Source of the DNA: a virus | Taxonomy: Duplodnaviria > Heunggongvirae > Uroviricota > Caudoviricetes | Reading direction: 5' to 3' (one strand) | Virus record (IMG/VR): IMGVR_UViG_3300029186_000001 | DNA: 64,000 bases | In this document: piece after piece, positions 1-59,908 of the stretch | Numbering within the stretch: position 1 is the first letter of the stretch | Layout of the letters: each line of letters begins with the position of its first letter | Notes under the pieces: model-generated | The model's input: only the letters and a program-made list of their open reading frames with translations | The model's database searches: none | Told to the model about the DNA's origin: nothing | Position numbers and translations under genes: made by a program

Positions 1-110
1 TATAGGTAGGGATTAAGACTAAAACGTTGGTTTAGGGGAAGGCTCGGCGCTGCCCGTTGGTGTACCTGTTCCATGGCCCTCAGCCACACCACCAACGGGG
101 TGGCTGAAAT
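1..110. repeat. Left arm of inverted repeat (identical to reverse complement of 2437-2546; similarity decays out to ~230 bp)
   Basis: Direct comparison of window 1-110 with reverse complement of 2437-2546. Confidence 0.85.
15..40 (+). promoter_or_regulatory. Putative Cin crossover site (cix/mix-like), aagactaaaacg-tt-ggtttaggggaa
   Basis: 26-bp site with AAAAC(G)-NN-GGTTT core resembling hix/gix/cix; identical to inverted copy at 2507-2532. Confidence 0.55.
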
Positions 111-493
111 GTAACGGAGCAGCATTTTCTTCTGAAAAGTACCCAAATCTGGCAAAGGCTTACCCTACTAATAAATTGCCGGATTTACGCGGTGAATTTA
201 TTCGTGGCTGGGATGACGGACGTGGTGTGGATGCCGGGCGACAATTATTATCTTCACAGGGGGATGCAATAAGAAATATTGAGGGGTTCGCAGATGGCGG
301 GATTGGCATGTCTTTTGATGCAATCAGAGGGGCTTTTTATGATGCAGGAACACGATCTGCGAGAATGCCGAATAACACAACTGATATAGGCAAAACCGAT
401 GACCTTGGATTCGACGCCTCTCGTGTCGTGCCAACAGCTAATGAAAACCGTCCTCGTAATATTGCCTTTAATTATATCGTAAGGGCGGCATAA
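23..493 (+). CDS. Tail-fibre variable C-terminal cassette 1 (S-variable-like, no start codon of its own; frame open from 23)
   Basis: Frame encodes GEGSALPVGVPVPWP...KLPDLRGEFIRGWDDGRG...RPRNIAFNYIVRAA; conserved N- and C-terminal blocks shared with the other cassettes. Confidence 0.6.
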   Translation, partial: NVGLGEGSALPVGVPVPWPSATPPTGWLKCNGAAFSSEKYPNLAKAYPTNKLPDLRGEFIRGWDDGRGVDAGRQLLSSQGDAIRNIEGFADGGIGMSFDAIRGAFYDAGTRSARMPNNTTDIGKTDDLGFDASRVVPTANENRPRNIAFNYIVRAA

Positions 494-512
494 AAACGTT
501 GGTTTGGGGGAA
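487..512 (+). promoter_or_regulatory. Putative internal crossover site between cassettes 1 and 2
   Basis: ggcataaaaacg-tt-ggtttgggggaa, same core as site 15-40, at cassette junction. Confidence 0.5.
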
Positions 513-932
513 GGCTCTGCACTGCCTGTTGGTGTGCCCGTTCCGTGGCCCTTAGAAACACCACCAACGGGCTGGCTAAAATGTAACGGAGCAGCATTTT
601 CTTCTGAAATGTATCCCAAACTGGCAAAAGCCTACCCCACCAATAAATTACCGGATTTACGCGGTGAATTTATCCGTGGCTGGGATGATGGGCGCGGGAT
701 TGATGCGGGACGTACCCTGCTTTCAGGGCAGGATGGTACAAGTTTTTCTCATTACGGAGGTAATTTCGACATTGGGTCTGGTCATTCAATCAATAACTAT
801 GACCAAATTGTTTCTAACCAACCAGGATTTTCCCGTTTTTCATTTGCAGGGCCTTCACGAGGTGATGGGGTTAATTATGTAACCATTCGTCCTCGTAACA
901 TTGCGTTTAATTATATCGTAAGGGCGGCATGA
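504..932 (+). CDS. Tail-fibre variable C-terminal cassette 2
   Basis: 142-aa ORF with same conserved ends and a divergent middle. Confidence 0.6.
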   Translation: MGEGSALPVGVPVPWPLETPPTGWLKCNGAAFSSEMYPKLAKAYPTNKLPDLRGEFIRGWDDGRGIDAGRTLLSGQDGTSFSHYGGNFDIGSGHSINNYDQIVSNQPGFSRFSFAGPSRGDGVNYVTIRPRNIAFNYIVRAA

Positions 933-951
933 AAACGTTGGTTTGGGAGAA
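926..951 (+). promoter_or_regulatory. Putative internal crossover site between cassettes 2 and 3
   Basis: ggcatgaaaacg-tt-ggtttgggagaa, same core, at cassette junction. Confidence 0.5.
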
Positions 952-1440
952 GGCTCTGCATTACCTGTTGGTGTCCCTGTTCCGTGGCCTTCAGCCACTC
1001 CGCCAACAGGCTGGCTGAAATGCAACGGTGCGGCTTTTTCTGCTGAAGAATACCCGGAACTGGCAAAGGCTTACCCGACAAATAAATTGCCTGATTTACG
1101 TGGTGAGTTCATTCGTGGCTGGGATGACGGGCGCGGGATTGATCCAGGTCGCTCTATTTTAAGCGAGCAAGGATATGCAACGGAGGATCATGCTCACGGA
1201 TTACCGTCAAAATCAACCGTAGCAACTGACAGCTCAATTAATTTCTACTTTGACGAGGCATGGGCTACTAGTGGTAATACGGGAGTTATCAGATGGGGGA
1301 ACACAAGCGATGCAGGATTGCCAGCCCCTAATTATGGAACTTTTAAAACATATAAACAGTCCGTAGCTAATTTAGGTACTGCTGGCTTAGAAACCCGCCC
1401 TCGTAATATTGCATTTAATTATATTGTGAGGGCGGATTAA
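943..1440 (+). CDS. Tail-fibre variable C-terminal cassette 3
   Basis: 165-aa ORF with same conserved ends and a divergent middle. Confidence 0.6.
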   Translation: MGEGSALPVGVPVPWPSATPPTGWLKCNGAAFSAEEYPELAKAYPTNKLPDLRGEFIRGWDDGRGIDPGRSILSEQGYATEDHAHGLPSKSTVATDSSINFYFDEAWATSGNTGVIRWGNTSDAGLPAPNYGTFKTYKQSVANLGTAGLETRPRNIAFNYIVRAD

Positions 1441-1445
1441 TTATA

Positions 1446-2057
1446 TCAACTGGCTGTAGAAAGTTGTTTTTCAGGCCAGTTGAGATCTGGTGCCGTGGTT
1501 AAATCCATCGCGTTCAGCTCGTCTATATAATCTAGCACGGAGTTAAGCTGCGTGGTTTCTGCCTGCGTCAACTTCCGTCCAGCCCGTAATTTCAACTGAA
1601 TCAGACTAATGGAATCCATCGCAGTATCAATCAATGACTGACGTTTTGTTTCTGCTGCCTCTACAGCTGCACTATGTTGAGCCTCAGTATCAACCACCCA
1701 TTTCTCTCCATCCCATTTGTCGTATGGTGTTAGCGGGGCGATAGTGGTTGTATTTTCCGGATAGTCACCCAACACCGTGATTTCTTCGGGATTCCCAGTG
1801 TCAATGCTATAGACAGTTTCGCCACGATGATCTGGCACATACTCCCATGAACTTAAATCCTCTGAACGGAGAATCGCATAACCTGCTTTATGTGAGCCTG
1901 GAGCATCCAAACAAGAATGTGCCGGAATACCAACGCCAACAGCAAGATATTCAGTTGATGCAGAAATATATTCCCGATTACCACCATCATAGTTATAAAC
2001 GATAATGTTTCCTGCCTGTATGGCTATAAGTTCGCTATTTAATATCGCATTATCCAT
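1446..2057 (-). CDS. U: Tail-fibre assembly chaperone (U-like, Tfa family)
   Basis: 203-aa ORF whose start overlaps the stop of minus-strand cassette 4 (ATAATGG); position and size match phage U/Tfa genes. Confidence 0.7.
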   Translation of the reverse strand: MDNAILNSELIAIQAGNIIVYNYDGGNREYISASTEYLAVGVGIPAHSCLDAPGSHKAGYAILRSEDLSSWEYVPDHRGETVYSIDTGNPEEITVLGDYPENTTTIAPLTPYDKWDGEKWVVDTEAQHSAAVEAAETKRQSLIDTAMDSISLIQLKLRAGRKLTQAETTQLNSVLDYIDELNAMDLTTAPDLNWPEKQLSTAS

Positions 2058-2524
2058 TATGCTGCTCTCACAATATAATTGAAGGCAATGTTACGTGGGC
2101 GGGTTTCATTCCCCCCAGATAACTCCGTTCTGTATTGACTGGTAAATTTACCATTAATCGCTCCTTCTTGGACGGCGTTATCTGTCGACAACAGACTATC
2201 CCCCCCTCTGTCATTTGGCACCAATACCGTGTTATCCCACGCGTCCCATGACCGAATATTATGATAATGACTTCCTGTTAACCACCCCTGTATGCTTAAG
2301 ATGACCCTTCCCGCATCCACACCTCGCCCATCATCCCAACCACGGATAAACTCACCGCGTAAATCAGGTAATTTTAACGTTGGGTAAACCTTTGCCAGAT
2401 TTGGGTACTTTTCAGAAGAAAATGCTGCACCATTGCATTTCAGCCACCCCGTTGGTGGTGTGGCTGAGGGCCATGGAACAGGTACACCAACGGGCAGCGC
2501 CGAGCCTTCCCCTAAACCAACGTT
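2057..2524 (-). CDS. Tail-fibre variable C-terminal cassette 4 (Sv-like), translationally coupled to U
   Basis: Minus-strand frame encodes the same GEGSALPVGVPVPWP...RGEFIRGWDDGRG...RPRNIAFNYIVRAA architecture. Confidence 0.6.
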   Translation of the reverse strand, partial: NVGLGEGSALPVGVPVPWPSATPPTGWLKCNGAAFSSEKYPNLAKVYPTLKLPDLRGEFIRGWDDGRGVDAGRVILSIQGWLTGSHYHNIRSWDAWDNTVLVPNDRGGDSLLSTDNAVQEGAINGKFTSQYRTELSGGNETRPRNIAFNYIVRAA

Positions 2525-2546
2525 TTAGTCTTAATCCCTACCTATA
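2437..2546. repeat. Right arm of inverted repeat flanking the invertible region
   Basis: Reverse complement matches window 1-110. Confidence 0.85.
2507..2532 (-). promoter_or_regulatory. Putative Cin crossover site, inverted orientation, cin-proximal
   Basis: Reverse complement identical to site 15-40; lies 55 bp upstream of cin start. Confidence 0.55.
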
Positions 2547-2586
2547 CCAACGATGTATTTTTAACTAAACAAAGAGGTTGTTTTTC

Positions 2587-3159
2587 ATGCAAATTGGCTA
2601 CATTCGTGTGTCAACAAATGACCAAAACACAGATTTACAAAGAAATGCACTGAACTGCGCAGGATGTGAACTGATTTTTGAAGATAAAATAAGCGGAACA
2701 AAGTCAGCCAGACCAGGCTTGAAAAAGCTGCTCAGAACGTTATCAGAAGGAGATACGCTGGTTGTCTGGAAGCTGGATAGGCTTGGCAGAAGTATGAAAC
2801 ACCTTATCACGCTTATAGAGGAGTTGCGGGAAAAAGGTGTTAATTTCCGTAGTCTGACAGACAGTATTGACACATCAACACCCATGGGGCGTTTCTTTTT
2901 TCACGTCATGGGGGCTTTAGCAGAAATGGAACGTGAATTAATTGTTGAGAGAACACTGGCCGGACTGGCAGCTGCACGCGAACAGGGACGCATTGGCGGA
3001 CGTCGCCCGAAGTTGACAAAAGAACAACATGAGCAAATAGCGAGGTTGATCGAAAATGGCTACAGCAGGAAACAGTTGGCAATTATTTACGATATCGGTG
3101 TATCGACGATTTATCGTTATCATCCTGTAGAGAAGCGCCAAACTCAATCTGAGCTGTAA
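2587..3159 (+). CDS. cin: Serine DNA invertase Cin (Hin/Gin/Cin family)
   Basis: MQIGYIRVSTNDQNTDLQ N-terminus with catalytic Ser context, C-terminal HTH; AAGAGG RBS 10 bp upstream of ATG at 2587. Confidence 0.9.
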   Translation: MQIGYIRVSTNDQNTDLQRNALNCAGCELIFEDKISGTKSARPGLKKLLRTLSEGDTLVVWKLDRLGRSMKHLITLIEELREKGVNFRSLTDSIDTSTPMGRFFFHVMGALAEMERELIVERTLAGLAAAREQGRIGGRRPKLTKEQHEQIARLIENGYSRKQLAIIYDIGVSTIYRYHPVEKRQTQSEL

Positions 3160-3249
3160 TTCTAATGCCGCGTCGGTGTAATTTATCTTGATAGAATAGG
3201 TACATTTATCGCGCGGCACATCAATTCGATGTATCTAGCGCCTGCTGAC

Positions 3250-3281
3250 CGCTAATGAAAACTGTCCTCGAAATGTTGTCC
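3250..3281 (+). repeat. Vestige of a tail-fibre cassette 3-prime end downstream of cin
   Basis: gctaatgaaaactgtcctcgaaatgttgtccc matches the cassette-1 end gctaatgaaaaccgtcctcgtaatattgcc at about 26 of 30 positions. Confidence 0.5.
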
Positions 3282-3594
3282 CTAGCCCGAGACTAGGGTA
3301 TCACCTCTGGAAAGCATACGCAGAACCTTTTTTAACCCAGGGTGCCCAGCCTTTTTGCTGCTCGCCTTATTCGCAAAAATTAGCTCACATCCTGCGCTTT
3401 CAAGTGCTTTTCACTGCATAGCTGTGTTTTGTTCATTTGTCTATATGCGTACATAGCCTATTAGCATATTTTCTGCCCACTATCGTTATTTATTGCAAGC
3501 TACAGGTTTTAATTAACAAAACCAGTGTGTGTGGAAATCACAAAGTGCATACCGTTCTCAGATGTTGTTCAACTTACTGTTGTATAGGTAAAAA

Positions 3595-3858: not shown

Positions 3859-3932
3859 GTCTCTTATGCAACATAACCGGTTGAGAAGTTACTTTGCATA
3901 CCATTACCTCCTGACAACGTAGGAGGGAACTT

Positions 3933-24813: not shown

Positions 24814-26118
24814 CTATATAAACTTAGATATAATATCGTGAATCTGTTGTAGCGGGATTTCTTCCATCTTACTCTTAATAAGAGAGCGGTTAGATGCTGT
24901 CAGTGAAGGCCATTTTGTTTTCCAGGCTAGATATGCTCGCCATGAGTAGCCTGTTTCGTAAGGTTTATTCATATAAGTCATTGAGTGTTCAACCGCATGT
25001 ATGTATTTTTTCTCAAAGTTGGTTCCTTTTACTTCAAATAAACTACCGAAATAAATAAGCCATTTTGCCAGGTGTTCATACTGCTCCCATGCGCCAGACT
25101 CTTTAGTAAGATCTATTTTTTTATCTATTATATCACAAAAAACATTTAATACCTTTTCATCATTCCAGCTATATCCAGATGATGAAATGGAGGAAATGAT
25201 ATGATAAAAAGAATCCTCTAACTTCAAGAACTCTATTTTATACTCTCTTCCGTTTTTTATTACCGATTTGATTGAGTGCCTCAATTTGTCTTTTATTTTT
25301 TTTGCTTCTGGAATTTTCTTGTTAAGTTTTCTAAAGAAATCAGACACCTCTGTTTTATCTATAACCCTAATCCCAAAGCAGGAAAAATAGTAATCTTTAA
25401 TAGGTTGCAATAGTTTCCCTCGGGAAATAAGGAAAATATTGGAGGACATTACGTTGTCCCGTGAAAATACCTTATATTCATTTATAATCGCCTTGAGGTT
25501 CGCGTCACTTAGAGAATAGCCAAGAATAACAATAGTGTTTTCATGTAGAACTGTGCTTAGTTTATTTGAAAAGTAAGAATTACCATTTATAAATCTGAAA
25601 TAATCCTCGCTAGTAACAACCATATCTGATGGGGAGTCTATAGAGCCGTGAACATGGTAGACTTTAACCTCACAATTATATTTTGGAATTGGCAGGCCGG
25701 GGGTGATTGTACACGTTCGATTCTCTCCAGCCAGTTTTTCTGCTAACTTGTCATAATTTGTCGTAATTACTTTAAATGTGTTTTCTTTGAAAAAGTCTTG
25801 AATATATTCAATTGATGGATCAAGTTCGATTGAGGCTATGATTTTCTCAATCTCCTGGTAAATATTTTTCCCCGAAAGTATAAATTTTAGTGCAATAACC
25901 TGAGCAGCCTCTTCAAGGCTAAGGTCTTTTGCTTTTCCATCAGGAAATAATTCCTCTTTGAGTGAGTCACCATCCTTCAATAAACCGCACAGTTGCTCCA
26001 ATAAAGATTGCCAACTTGGGGCTTTATCATCAGAAACAGCCTTTGAAAATCCAGTGCCTGTAAGAAAGCACAGCCTATGTGTAGCTGCTGCATAGGCAAT
26101 TTCTATATACTCGCTCAT
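24814..26118 (-). CDS. SIR2-like (sirtuin/NADase-type) domain protein with uncharacterised C-terminal helical domain; candidate antiphage effector
   Basis: 434-aa ORF; motifs FLTGTGFS, TTNYD, VYHVHGS and LGYSLSD in the N-terminal ~270 aa; GGAG RBS; markedly AT-rich relative to flanks. Confidence 0.8.
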   Translation of the reverse strand: MSEYIEIAYAAATHRLCFLTGTGFSKAVSDDKAPSWQSLLEQLCGLLKDGDSLKEELFPDGKAKDLSLEEAAQVIALKFILSGKNIYQEIEKIIASIELDPSIEYIQDFFKENTFKVITTNYDKLAEKLAGENRTCTITPGLPIPKYNCEVKVYHVHGSIDSPSDMVVTSEDYFRFINGNSYFSNKLSTVLHENTIVILGYSLSDANLKAIINEYKVFSRDNVMSSNIFLISRGKLLQPIKDYYFSCFGIRVIDKTEVSDFFRKLNKKIPEAKKIKDKLRHSIKSVIKNGREYKIEFLKLEDSFYHIISSISSSGYSWNDEKVLNVFCDIIDKKIDLTKESGAWEQYEHLAKWLIYFGSLFEVKGTNFEKKYIHAVEHSMTYMNKPYETGYSWRAYLAWKTKWPSLTASNRSLIKSKMEEIPLQQIHDIISKFI

Positions 26119-57678: not shown

Positions 57679-57754
57679 TGGTGGCCCCTACCGGACTTGA
57701 ACCGGTGACCGTGCGATTATGAGTCGCCAGCTCTAACCACTGAGCTAAAGGGCC
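57679..57754 (-). tRNA. tRNA with CAU anticodon (Met/Ile2-like, resembles ileX)
   Basis: Manual fold: 7-bp acceptor, GCTCAGTGGTTAGAGC D-arm, CTCATAA anticodon loop, GGTTCAAGTCC T-arm, CCA end. Confidence 0.8.
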
Positions 57755-59754: not shown

Positions 59755-59830
59755 TGGTGCCGATTAACGGACTCGAACCGCTGACATCCTGCTTACAAGG
59801 CAGGCGCTCTACCAACTGAGCTAAACCGGC
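59755..59830 (-). tRNA. tRNA-Thr (UGU)
   Basis: Manual fold: GCCGGTT acceptor, CTTGTAA anticodon loop, GGTTCGAGTCC T-arm, CCA end. Confidence 0.8.
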
Positions 59831-59832
59831 AT

Positions 59833-59908
59833 TGGCGATGGTGGATGGATTTGAACCATCGACCCGTTGATTAACAGTCAACCGCTCTAACCGCTGAGCT
59901 ACACCATC
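59833..59908 (-). tRNA. tRNA-Asn (GUU)
   Basis: Manual fold: GATGGTG acceptor, CTGTTAA anticodon loop, GGTTCAAATCC T-arm, CCA end. Confidence 0.8.

What the first reader, a model, noticed from the sequence alone, without database searches (positions are those of the whole stretch)
1..2553. Multi-cassette tail-fibre inversion system (four cassettes, four crossover sites, one chaperone)
Classical P1 carries two alternative tail-fibre variable ends, each with its own U chaperone. Here three tandem plus-strand cassettes and one minus-strand cassette share conserved start and end blocks but have different middles. The same crossover core recurs at three directly repeated junctions and once inverted next to cin, which would allow several nested inversions as in a shufflon or the p15B Min system. 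Only one U-like chaperone gene is present, coupled to the minus-strand cassette.
Basis: partly seen in the sequence, partly recalled or inferred. Interest (0 to 1): 0.6.

Follow-up and report, generated by a model that had tools for sequence, protein, structure and literature searches.

The report
p15B Min-type tail-fibre shuffling array
This is the already described multi-site DNA inversion switch of P1-like phage-plasmids (the "Min" system of plasmid p15B), which swaps the receptor-binding tip of the tail fibre; it is real and probably active here, but it is common and not new.

Summary
Window 1-2546 carries four tail-fibre tip cassettes, three on the plus strand and one on the minus strand. 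Each starts at a copy of one crossover site: 4 found against 0.01 expected by chance. There is one Tfa-type chaperone gene, and a serine invertase sits next door. The invertase sequence is found on at least 1000 public contigs. The array is 95-97% identical to a plasmid region published as 99% identical to p15B min. All 26 related loci obey the same layout rule, with 3-10 cassettes and always a single chaperone.

Two corrections:
- The constant part of the fibre gene is off-window, and no cassette is fused to it here.
- The first 111 nt are a perfect inverted copy of the invertase-side junction. This is a k=111 assembler contig end, and it implies two inversion isomers in the sequenced DNA. 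"Four cassettes" is therefore a lower bound.

Four sites allow 12 isomers and four alternative tips. Whether the single chaperone serves all tips remains open. Novelty: already known. Interest: low.

The parts
1..20 (.). Copy, in reverse complement, of the 20 nt that flank the array on the invertase side (X, 2527-2546). It is part of the 111-nt terminal k-mer of the contig. It marks the junction 'cassette 1 next to invertase' of another isomer.
   Evidence: Perfect inverted repeat 1-111 versus 2436-2546. Three other assemblies end in such arrays with terminal repeats of exactly 111 nt.
15..40 (+). Crossover site A (26 bp, centre TT at 27-28). The left half is the X type and the right half belongs to cassette 1.
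29..493 (+). Cassette c1, a silent 3' end of the tail-fibre gene (154 codons plus TAA). It is not fused to a constant part in this window.
   Evidence: Stop codons lie upstream in all frames (sequence).
487..512 (+). Crossover site B (centre TT at 499-500). Its left half contains the TAA stop of c1.
501..932 (+). Cassette c2 (143 codons plus TGA).
   Evidence: The exact 142-aa protein called from it is on about 1000 contigs.
926..951 (+). Crossover site C (centre TT at 938-939). Its left half contains the TGA stop of c2.
940..1440 (+). Cassette c3 (166 codons plus TAA), convergent with the chaperone gene and 5 nt from its stop. By sequence it is homologous to the T4 gp37 tip (2XGF) and to a short tail fibre (9CUY).
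1446..2057 (-). Tail-fibre assembly chaperone of TfaE/lambda-Tfa type (203 aa). Its start overlaps the stop of c4.
   Evidence: Pfam Caudo_TAP 3e-30. PHROG 105 'tail fiber assembly' 1e-92. The exact protein is listed in 3496 blocks of the collection. No similarity to P1 U.
2057..2518 (-). Cassette c4 (153 codons plus TAA), the only cassette followed by the chaperone gene.
2507..2532 (-). Crossover site D (centre at 2519-2520), inverted relative to A-C. Its left half is the invertase-side flank X.
2587..3159 (+). Din-family serine DNA invertase (Min type, 190 aa), reading away from the array.
   Evidence: Resolvase plus HTH_7. 74% aa identity to P1 Cin. The exact sequence equals UniRef100 Q05517_ECOLX and is on at least 1000 contigs.
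2605..2676 (+). Homologue of the recombinational enhancer annotated inside P1 cin (gene nt 19-90).
   Evidence: 58/72 nt identical to the P1 enhancer. Function is inferred by homology only.
3224..3278 (+). Remnant of a cassette 3' end, a scar downstream of the invertase gene.
   Evidence: 77% identity to c1 409-464. Repeat family D4.
3291..3556 (-). Remnant of a P1-type cin 5' end (177 nt) with its promoter region, pointing towards the array.
   Evidence: 89.9% identity to P1 31570-31836. The P1 RefSeq notes record the same remnant in p15B.

Best explanation
This is a p15B Min-type multiple DNA inversion switch of a P1-like phage-plasmid.

The tail-fibre gene S has a constant 5' part, which lies off-window on the other side of the array. 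That part ends in a crossover site. Downstream lies a store of promoterless 3' cassettes, each beginning with the right half of such a site. Every cassette except c3 ends with a stop codon that forms part of the left half of the next site; c3 ends 5 nt from the stop of the convergent chaperone gene. The serine invertase encoded next to the array pairs two sites of opposite orientation and exchanges strands in the central TT. This presumably happens in a Fis/enhancer-dependent synapse, as for Hin, Gin and Cin. The exchange inverts everything between the two sites.

One segment (c3 > < U-c4) has convergent ends and the others are single cassettes. Repeated inversions can therefore permute the segments. 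Four sites and three segments give 12 isomers. The cassette that lands behind the constant part (c1, c2, c3 or c4) is translated as the fibre's receptor-binding tip. The conserved start and end blocks build the collar fold, and the variable middle is the distal, receptor-contacting part.

Shown here: the anatomy, the homology, the permutation pattern among relatives, and the assembly signature of two isomers. Inferred: Fis/enhancer dependence, expression from the P1 late promoter upstream of R/S, and host-range consequences.
For: - Sites: four sites against 0.01 expected by chance. The centre is TT in all 152 sites of 27 loci. The right half GGTTTRGGRGAA compares with P1 cix GGTTTAAGAGAA.
- Invertase: Resolvase plus HTH_7; 74% identical to P1 Cin; enhancer homologue 58/72 nt.
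- Identity with p15B Min: window 888-2526 is 95.5%, window 1-710 is 97.3% and the invertase region is 96.7% identical to pMCR_SCKP-LL83. Its authors report that plasmid's inversion region as 92% coverage and 99% identity to p15B min (PMC5786510). The layout downstream is collinear with p15B as cross-referenced in the P1 RefSeq notes.
- Layout in relatives: in 26 related loci every cassette points towards the single c4-U/c3 segment. That segment occurs in both orientations. One Sc-type junction comes first and one X-type junction last.
- Breakpoints: 43 different cassette adjacencies were seen. The left half-site travels with the preceding cassette (c1 20/20, c2 16/16). The right half travels with the following cassette (c3 23/24, c2 16/16, F 14/14). 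This places the exchange at the site centre.
- Isomer count: a breadth-first search reaches 12 isomers. The same rule gives 240 for five segments, the number published for p15B (recalled from memory).
- Two isomers in the reads: positions 1-111 are a perfect inverted copy of 2436-2546, and three other assemblies end with exactly 111-nt terminal repeats. Both junctions X-c1 and X-c4 must therefore be present in the reads.
- Fold: the cassettes match the T4 gp37 tip at both ends.
Against: - No reads were available, so inversion in this strain is inferred from the contig-end signature. It would be weaker if the sample were a strain mixture.
- The constant part of S and its promoter are not in the window, so expression of any cassette is not shown here.
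- p15B's own sequence (X62121) is not in the collections. Identity to it is indirect.
- Homologous recombination between the 220-nt start blocks could also invert segments. The 91 identical nt shared by c1 and c4 suggest some gene conversion.
Confidence: 0.9

Rival explanations
1. The array is a fossil. The cassettes and sites are inherited, but the switch no longer turns in this element, and the arrangements seen among relatives are old events.
For: No direct read evidence was available. Some relatives carry frameshifted or truncated cassettes, for example L026 and L001.
Against: In the window all four cassettes are intact and all four sites match the pattern. The invertase is full length and identical to a widespread protein. 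The contig-end signature requires both X-c1 and X-c4 junctions in the reads. Near-identical cassette sets occur in different permutations, for example L020 versus L025.
Confidence: 0.05
2. Rearrangement is driven mainly by RecA-dependent homologous recombination between the 220-nt conserved start blocks, not by site-specific exchange.
For: The start blocks are 83-92% identical and long enough for homologous recombination. c1 and c4 share 91 identical nt after the site. The right half-site of c4 is not fixed among relatives, with counts of 6, 7, 4 and 4 for four variants.
Against: Polymorphisms only 4-8 nt from the centre stay with the downstream cassette whatever the left flank is: c3 23/24, c2 16/16, F 14/14. 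Exchanges spread over a 220-nt block would break this linkage. A dedicated invertase with an enhancer homologue is adjacent.
Confidence: 0.07
3. The cassettes are separate small tail-protein genes, as the public annotations call them (TTG starts, 'phage tail protein'), and are expressed on their own.
For: Gene callers annotate c2 and c3 as 142- and 165-aa proteins starting at TTG inside the site.
Against: c1 and c4 have TTA at that codon and so lack the start. No promoter-like excess occurs in the array: 5 sites against 6.3 expected. No P1 late promoter occurs in the array, with up to 2 mismatches allowed in the 9-nt box. In relatives the same cassettes are the in-frame ends of 550-1060-aa S proteins.
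Confidence: 0.03

Closest known systems
Min multiple inversion system of plasmid p15B (E. coli 15T-; Sandmeier, Iida, Arber 1990-1992; GenBank X62121)
   Same: - The invertase is of Min type and reads away from the array.
- The site core is the same.
- Short Collar cassettes follow one another, and each stop codon lies inside the next site.
- A single Tfa-type chaperone sits in the one convergent segment.
- A remnant of a P1-type cin 5' end lies downstream of the invertase.
- The position is the same, between the S/R fibre genes and the lyd/dar operon.
   Different: Only four sites and three segments are visible here (12 isomers), against six sites and 240 isomers reported for p15B (recalled from memory). 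The cassette set and order differ. The constant part is off-contig.
Cin / C-segment of phage P1
   Same: Din-family invertase, 74% aa identical. The crossover site has a TT centre and a similar right half. The enhancer lies inside the 5' end of the invertase gene. The genomic neighbourhood is the same.
   Different: P1 has two sites and two long variable ends (about 1.6 kb each), and each variable end has its own chaperone, U or U'. In P1, cin reads towards the segment with cixL at its 3' end. The cassettes and the chaperone here have no detectable similarity to P1 S, U or U'.
Gin (Mu), Hin (Salmonella) and Pin (e14) simple inversion switches
   Same: Same recombinase family and same site architecture. 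Gin and Pin also switch tail-fibre ends. The chaperone here is annotated TfaE-like in a relative.
   Different: They have two sites and two states. Hin switches a promoter, not a coding end.
R64 shufflon (Rci, pilV)
   Same: It works alike. Several sites allow segments to invert singly or in groups, and a constant 5' gene part acquires alternative 3' ends.
   Different: The recombinase is a tyrosine enzyme (Rci), the sites are unrelated sfx sites, there is no enhancer, and the target is a conjugative pilus adhesin. The array here is not a member of that family.

Membership tests
Din-family (Hin/Gin/Cin/Pin/Min) serine DNA invertase systems | Small serine recombinase with an N-terminal resolvase catalytic domain carrying the active-site serine, and a C-terminal HTH | tested here: met
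   Pfam Resolvase 2e-51 plus HTH_7 3e-15. YIRVSTNDQ motif at residues 5-13, and 74% identity to P1 Cin. PHROG 125 'DNA invertase' 1e-98.
Din-family (Hin/Gin/Cin/Pin/Min) serine DNA invertase systems | 26-bp crossover sites made of two imperfect inverted half-sites around a 2-bp core that is identical in partner sites | tested here: met
   Four sites with centre TT. The right half, read on the other strand, is TTCCCCTAAACC. The left half is weaker (..AAAACG). Compared with P1 cixL and cixR.
Din-family (Hin/Gin/Cin/Pin/Min) serine DNA invertase systems | Fis-dependent recombinational enhancer in cis, inside the 5' end of the invertase gene | tested here: inconclusive
   Window 2605-2676 aligns with the enhancer annotated in P1 cin at 58/72 nt. 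Fis binding and function cannot be tested with these tools.
Din-family (Hin/Gin/Cin/Pin/Min) serine DNA invertase systems | Inversion between oppositely oriented sites actually occurs | tested here: inconclusive
   Indirect evidence only. The 111-nt contig-end signature implies both X-c1 and X-c4 junctions in the reads. Permutations among relatives have breakpoints at the site centre. No reads were available.
p15B Min-type multiple inversion array | More than two crossover sites within the 3' region of the tail-fibre gene, giving overlapping invertible segments | tested here: met
   Four sites, three direct and one inverted. 12 isomers are reachable.
p15B Min-type multiple inversion array | Constant 5' part of the fibre gene ending in a site and fused in frame to one cassette | not testable with these tools
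   The constant part is off-window and the source contig was not found. In relatives it is present with junction GTTCTTAATTACC TT GGTTT and is in frame.
p15B Min-type multiple inversion array | Sequence identity to the p15B min region and Min invertase | tested here: inconclusive
   X62121 is not in the collections. Indirect evidence:
- 95-97% nt identity to pMCR_SCKP-LL83, which is published as 99% identical to p15B min.
- The spacing of landmarks equals that given for p15B in the P1 RefSeq notes, 610 against 614 nt.
- The invertase equals UniRef100 Q05517_ECOLX. The origin of that entry was not verified.
P1 C-segment (classical Cin system) | Two sites flanking Sv-U and Sv'-U' modules homologous to Mu S/U | tested here: not met
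   Four sites and one chaperone. tblastn finds no match of P1 S, U, U' or R in the window. U versus P1 U gives E 0.11.
R64-type shufflon | Tyrosine recombinase Rci acting on sfx repeats | tested here: not met
   The recombinase here is a serine resolvase-family enzyme.

The most novel reading that the evidence does not exclude
The single Tfa-type chaperone may be transcribed with the fibre gene only in the six of twelve isomers where its segment faces the S promoter, and never when tip c3 is the expressed one. On this reading the switch sets two things: which tip is made, and whether a chaperone is available. Tips c1-c3 would then either fold without a dedicated chaperone through the shared collar and C-terminal block, or give defective fibres. 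That would add a second, hidden layer of phase variation.
Probability: 0.2. Interest if true: 0.45.

Novelty: already known. Interest (0 to 1): 0.2.

Why it matters
P1-like phage-plasmids are frequent carriers of resistance genes such as mcr-1 and CTX-M. Their host range is set by this switch, so it is useful to know which tips an element stores.

The practical value lies in annotation and assembly:
- The silent cassettes are routinely annotated as independent 'phage tail protein' genes.
- Assemblies break in the array.
- Fragments of it are even deposited as 'plasmids', for example NZ_CP142924.1.
- A terminal inverted k-mer, as seen here, can be read as a cheap sign that the switch was turning in the sequenced culture.

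Biologically nothing here goes beyond what was described for p15B in 1990-1992. The one open point is how a single chaperone relates to many tips.

Tried and rejected
1. Finding the source record, to see what lies upstream of position 1. I tried megablast against plasmids, phages and E. coli genomes. I tried exact 56-mer scans of viral and genome contigs. I tried exact-protein look-ups with U, the 105-aa c1 ORF and the 2255-aa DarB. Only relatives turned up, the best with 94% coverage at 96.9% identity.
2. Reading the original p15B papers and the Johnson review. They are not held, so the figures of six sites and 240 isomers rest on memory.
3. Looking for a promoter that could express the chaperone independently. 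No P1 late-promoter box occurs in 1-3300, even with 2 mismatches. The only match in the window is LPdar at 3886. Sigma-70-like sites are not above chance.
4. Looking for c3-type tips in non-inverting phages, to see which chaperone follows them. Only one poorly assembled P1-like phage record carries c3, which is uninformative.
5. Sequence search of the chaperone against solved structures gave no hit.
6. The idea that the 2021-bp 'plasmid' is an excised circle. I rejected it because the record is linear, and a c4-U-c3 segment cannot be excised by direct-site deletion.
7. A real duplication with two invertase-side flanks in one molecule. I rejected it in favour of a contig-end artefact because of the exact 111-nt length, which three other assemblies share.
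Full report
**1. What is in the sequence**

The core AAACGTTGGTTTRGGRGAAGG occurs four times in the 64-kb window and nowhere else: 22-42(+), 494-514(+), 933-953(+) and 2505-2525(-). Chance expectation is 0.01.

From the GGT that follows the central TT of each site a reading frame runs for 154, 143, 166 and 153 codons. I call these c1 (29-493), c2 (501-932), c3 (940-1440) and c4 (2518-2057, minus strand). Their first ~77 residues are almost invariant. Their last 13 residues are identical (RPRNIAFNYIVRA). The 55-85 residues in between are unrelated. The DNA repeat analysis shows the same picture.

All four are Pfam Collar domains and PHROG tail-fibre ends. By sequence they match the receptor-binding tip of T4 gp37 (2XGF, E 5e-16). 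The start block and the extreme C-terminus (NIAFNYIVR) both align there. They also match a short tail fibre (9CUY). The conserved start and end therefore belong to one fold. I take this fold to be the collar. The Pfam Collar match covers only the start block; that the C-terminal strand returns into the collar is my recollection of the gp37 tip structure, not a tool result. On this reading the variable middle is the distal part.

The stop codon of c1 (TAA) lies inside the left half of site B, and that of c2 (TGA) inside the left half of site C.

A 203-aa Caudo_TAP chaperone gene lies at 1446-2057(-). It starts on the stop of c4 (TAATG) and converges on c3 with 5 nt between the stops. A 190-aa serine invertase lies at 2587-3159(+), 60 nt beyond site D, and reads away from the array. 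tblastn finds no second chaperone and no homologue of P1 S, R, U or U' in the whole window.

**2. The left edge**

All three frames are closed by stops within positions 1-40, so c1 is not fused to anything here. Positions 1-20 are the reverse complement of the 20 nt that separate site D from the invertase gene (flank X). The perfect inverted identity runs for exactly 111 nt.

Among 27 loci examined, the window is the only one with an X-type flank at both ends of the array and no junction to the fibre gene's constant part. Three unrelated public assemblies whose contigs also end in such arrays (L012, L021, L022) have terminal perfect repeats of exactly 111 nt as well. This is the footprint of a de Bruijn assembler with final k=111. 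From memory, that is what Shovill/SPAdes uses for 150-nt reads.

Window position 1 is therefore a contig start at a branching k-mer. The 112-mers 1-112 (X-site-c1) and 2435-2546 (c4-site-X) must both come from reads. One molecule has only one X, so the sequenced DNA held at least two isomers. They differ by an inversion between sites A and D.

This is an inference, not a read count. It would be weaker for a mixed sample. It also means that further cassettes may lie on other contigs, so four is a lower bound.

**3. What it is**

The neighbourhood is that of P1: holins, LydB, Hdf/DarA, DdrA/B, DarB and the identical late promoter LPdar at 3886.

- The invertase is 74% identical to P1 Cin.
- Nucleotides 19-90 of the invertase gene align with the enhancer annotated inside P1 cin at 58/72.
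- The sites resemble P1 cix. P1 cixL reads TCAATCCTAAACC TT GGTTTAAGAGAAC. Here they read ...AAAACG TT GGTTTRGGRGAAG.

The array itself, however, is not P1's. P1 has two sites, two ~1.6-kb variable ends each with its own U or U', and cin reading into the segment. The chaperone here shows no BLASTP similarity to P1 U.

The array is instead that of p15B.
- Window 888-2526 is 95.5%, window 1-710 is 97.3% and the invertase region is 96.7% identical to pMCR_SCKP-LL83. [quoted passage not shown]
- Downstream of the invertase the window carries a reversed remnant of a P1-type cin 5' end (3291-3556, 89.9% to P1) and a cassette-end scar (3224-3278).
- The P1 RefSeq notes record the same remnant in p15B, with the same spacing to the real enhancer: 614 nt against 610 nt.
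- The exact invertase protein is UniRef100 Q05517_ECOLX and occurs on at least 1000 contigs. The exact chaperone, c2 and c3 proteins are each on about 1000 contigs.

**4. Evidence that the internal sites work**

I catalogued 152 sites and about a dozen cassette types in the window plus 26 related loci.

Every locus obeys one rule. All cassettes on the S side point away from S. All cassettes on the invertase side point the other way. Between them lies a single convergent segment, c4-U facing c3, found in either orientation (about 13 to 11). One Sc-type junction (GTTCTTAATTACC TT) comes first and one X-type junction last.

The arrays hold 3 to 10 cassettes and always one chaperone. Identical cassette sets occur in different permutations, for example L020 and L025.

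There are 43 different adjacencies. The left half-site always goes with the preceding cassette (c1 20/20 TAA type, c2 16/16 TGA type). The right half goes with the following one (c3 23/24, c2 16/16, F 14/14). Polymorphisms 4-8 nt from the centre stay linked to the downstream cassette whatever lies upstream. This is expected for exchange in the central dinucleotide. It is not expected for homologous recombination spread over the 220-nt start block. The mixed right halves of c4, and the 91 nt shared by c1 and c4, show that some gene conversion also happens.

**5. How it works**

Each site is split into half-sites. The single cassettes are segments of type R...L, and the convergent segment is of type R...R'. 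Only inversions between oppositely oriented sites are allowed.

A breadth-first search from the window's order reaches 12 isomers. c1 or c2 stands first in four isomers each, and c3 or c4 in two each. The general count is n!x2 for n segments. For five segments this gives 240, the figure I recall for p15B's six sites.

The first cassette is read in frame from the constant part (...DYL|GLGEGSALPVG...) and stops at its own stop codon. The rest are silent.

Fis/enhancer dependence and the bias against deletion between direct sites follow from what is established for Hin, Gin and Cin. They were not tested here.

**6. The chaperone question**

One chaperone for many tips is the rule in this lineage, so it is not a peculiarity of this window.

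No P1 late promoter box occurs inside the array, and there is no excess of sigma-70-like sites. The chaperone is therefore probably transcribed from the S promoter. That is possible only in the six isomers where its segment faces S, and never when c3 is the expressed tip.

There are three possibilities:
- The chaperone serves only c4, to which it is translationally coupled.
- It acts on the shared collar/C-terminal block of all tips and has an unrecognised promoter.
- The other tips fold without it.

PMC9659904 reports that the lambda tail-fibre assembly protein (Tfa, written 'ltfa' there) can substitute for T4 gp38 on gp37. This shows that such chaperones can act across divergent tips. Nothing here decides the matter.

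**7. Verdict**

The system is the known p15B Min array, in an extremely common form. It is of low novelty. The useful by-products are the contig-end evidence for an isomer mixture and the annotation and assembly pitfalls.

Noticed in passing
window 1-111 versus 2436-2546; also L012, L021 and L022 contig ends: The terminal perfect repeat is exactly 111 nt in the window and in three unrelated assemblies that end in such arrays. This is a k=111 assembler footprint. It shows that the window starts at a contig end, and it implies two inversion isomers in the reads.
   Followed up: yes
window 3224-3278 and 3291-3556: A scar of a cassette 3' end, and a reversed remnant of a P1-type cin 5' end (177 nt) with its promoter region, which includes a second enhancer-like stretch. 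Both lie downstream of the working invertase gene. The P1 RefSeq notes record the same remnant for p15B. This suggests that the Min-type module replaced a P1-type cin and C segment.
   Followed up: partly
L028 (NZ_CP142924.1, 2021 bp); also NZ_JBQJRT010000008.1 and NZ_JBQJRS010000014.1: RefSeq records of 2-3 kb in E. coli assemblies match this array at about 98% identity. NZ_CP142924.1, the one inspected, is a linear record deposited as 'plasmid pB19429_5'. It holds only c4, the chaperone gene, c3 and one more cassette, so it is an unplaced assembly fragment of the invertible array. The other two were seen only in the hit tables.
   Followed up: partly
L016 (ENA ERZ1311137 NODE_12, 154 kb): Cassette c3 is the in-frame end of a P2-type H fibre gene next to P2 baseplate genes. 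This lies on the same contig as a P1-type S gene and c2-c1-c4-U. It is either a chimeric assembly through the shared c4-U-c3 segment or a real exchange of the module between P1-like and P2-like elements.
   Followed up: no
L010 (CP091159.1, E. coli chromosome, 1.39-1.41 Mb): A P1-type dar/lyd/invertase block with a seven-cassette array sits in a chromosome next to bluF/ymgF, which is the e14 region. c3 is fused to a short fibre gene there. This may be recombination between a P1-like plasmid and the e14 Pin region.
   Followed up: no
window 24814-26118(-), compared with L030 17524-18651: At the same position downstream of darB, the window (like L029) has a 434-aa SIR2_2-domain protein, whereas the otherwise near-identical L030 has a 375-aa RelA_SpoT-domain protein. 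This looks like a swappable accessory slot, probably for defence genes.
   Followed up: no
window 57679-57754 and 59755-59908: Three tRNA genes (Met, Thr, Asn) on the minus strand. From memory, P1 also carries three tRNA genes.
   Followed up: no
window 504-932 and 943-1440: Public annotations call the silent cassettes as separate proteins that start at the TTG inside the crossover site (142 and 165 aa, about 1000 contigs each). c1 and c4 have TTA there and are called shorter (c1 as a 105-aa ORF from 176) or not at all.
   Followed up: yes
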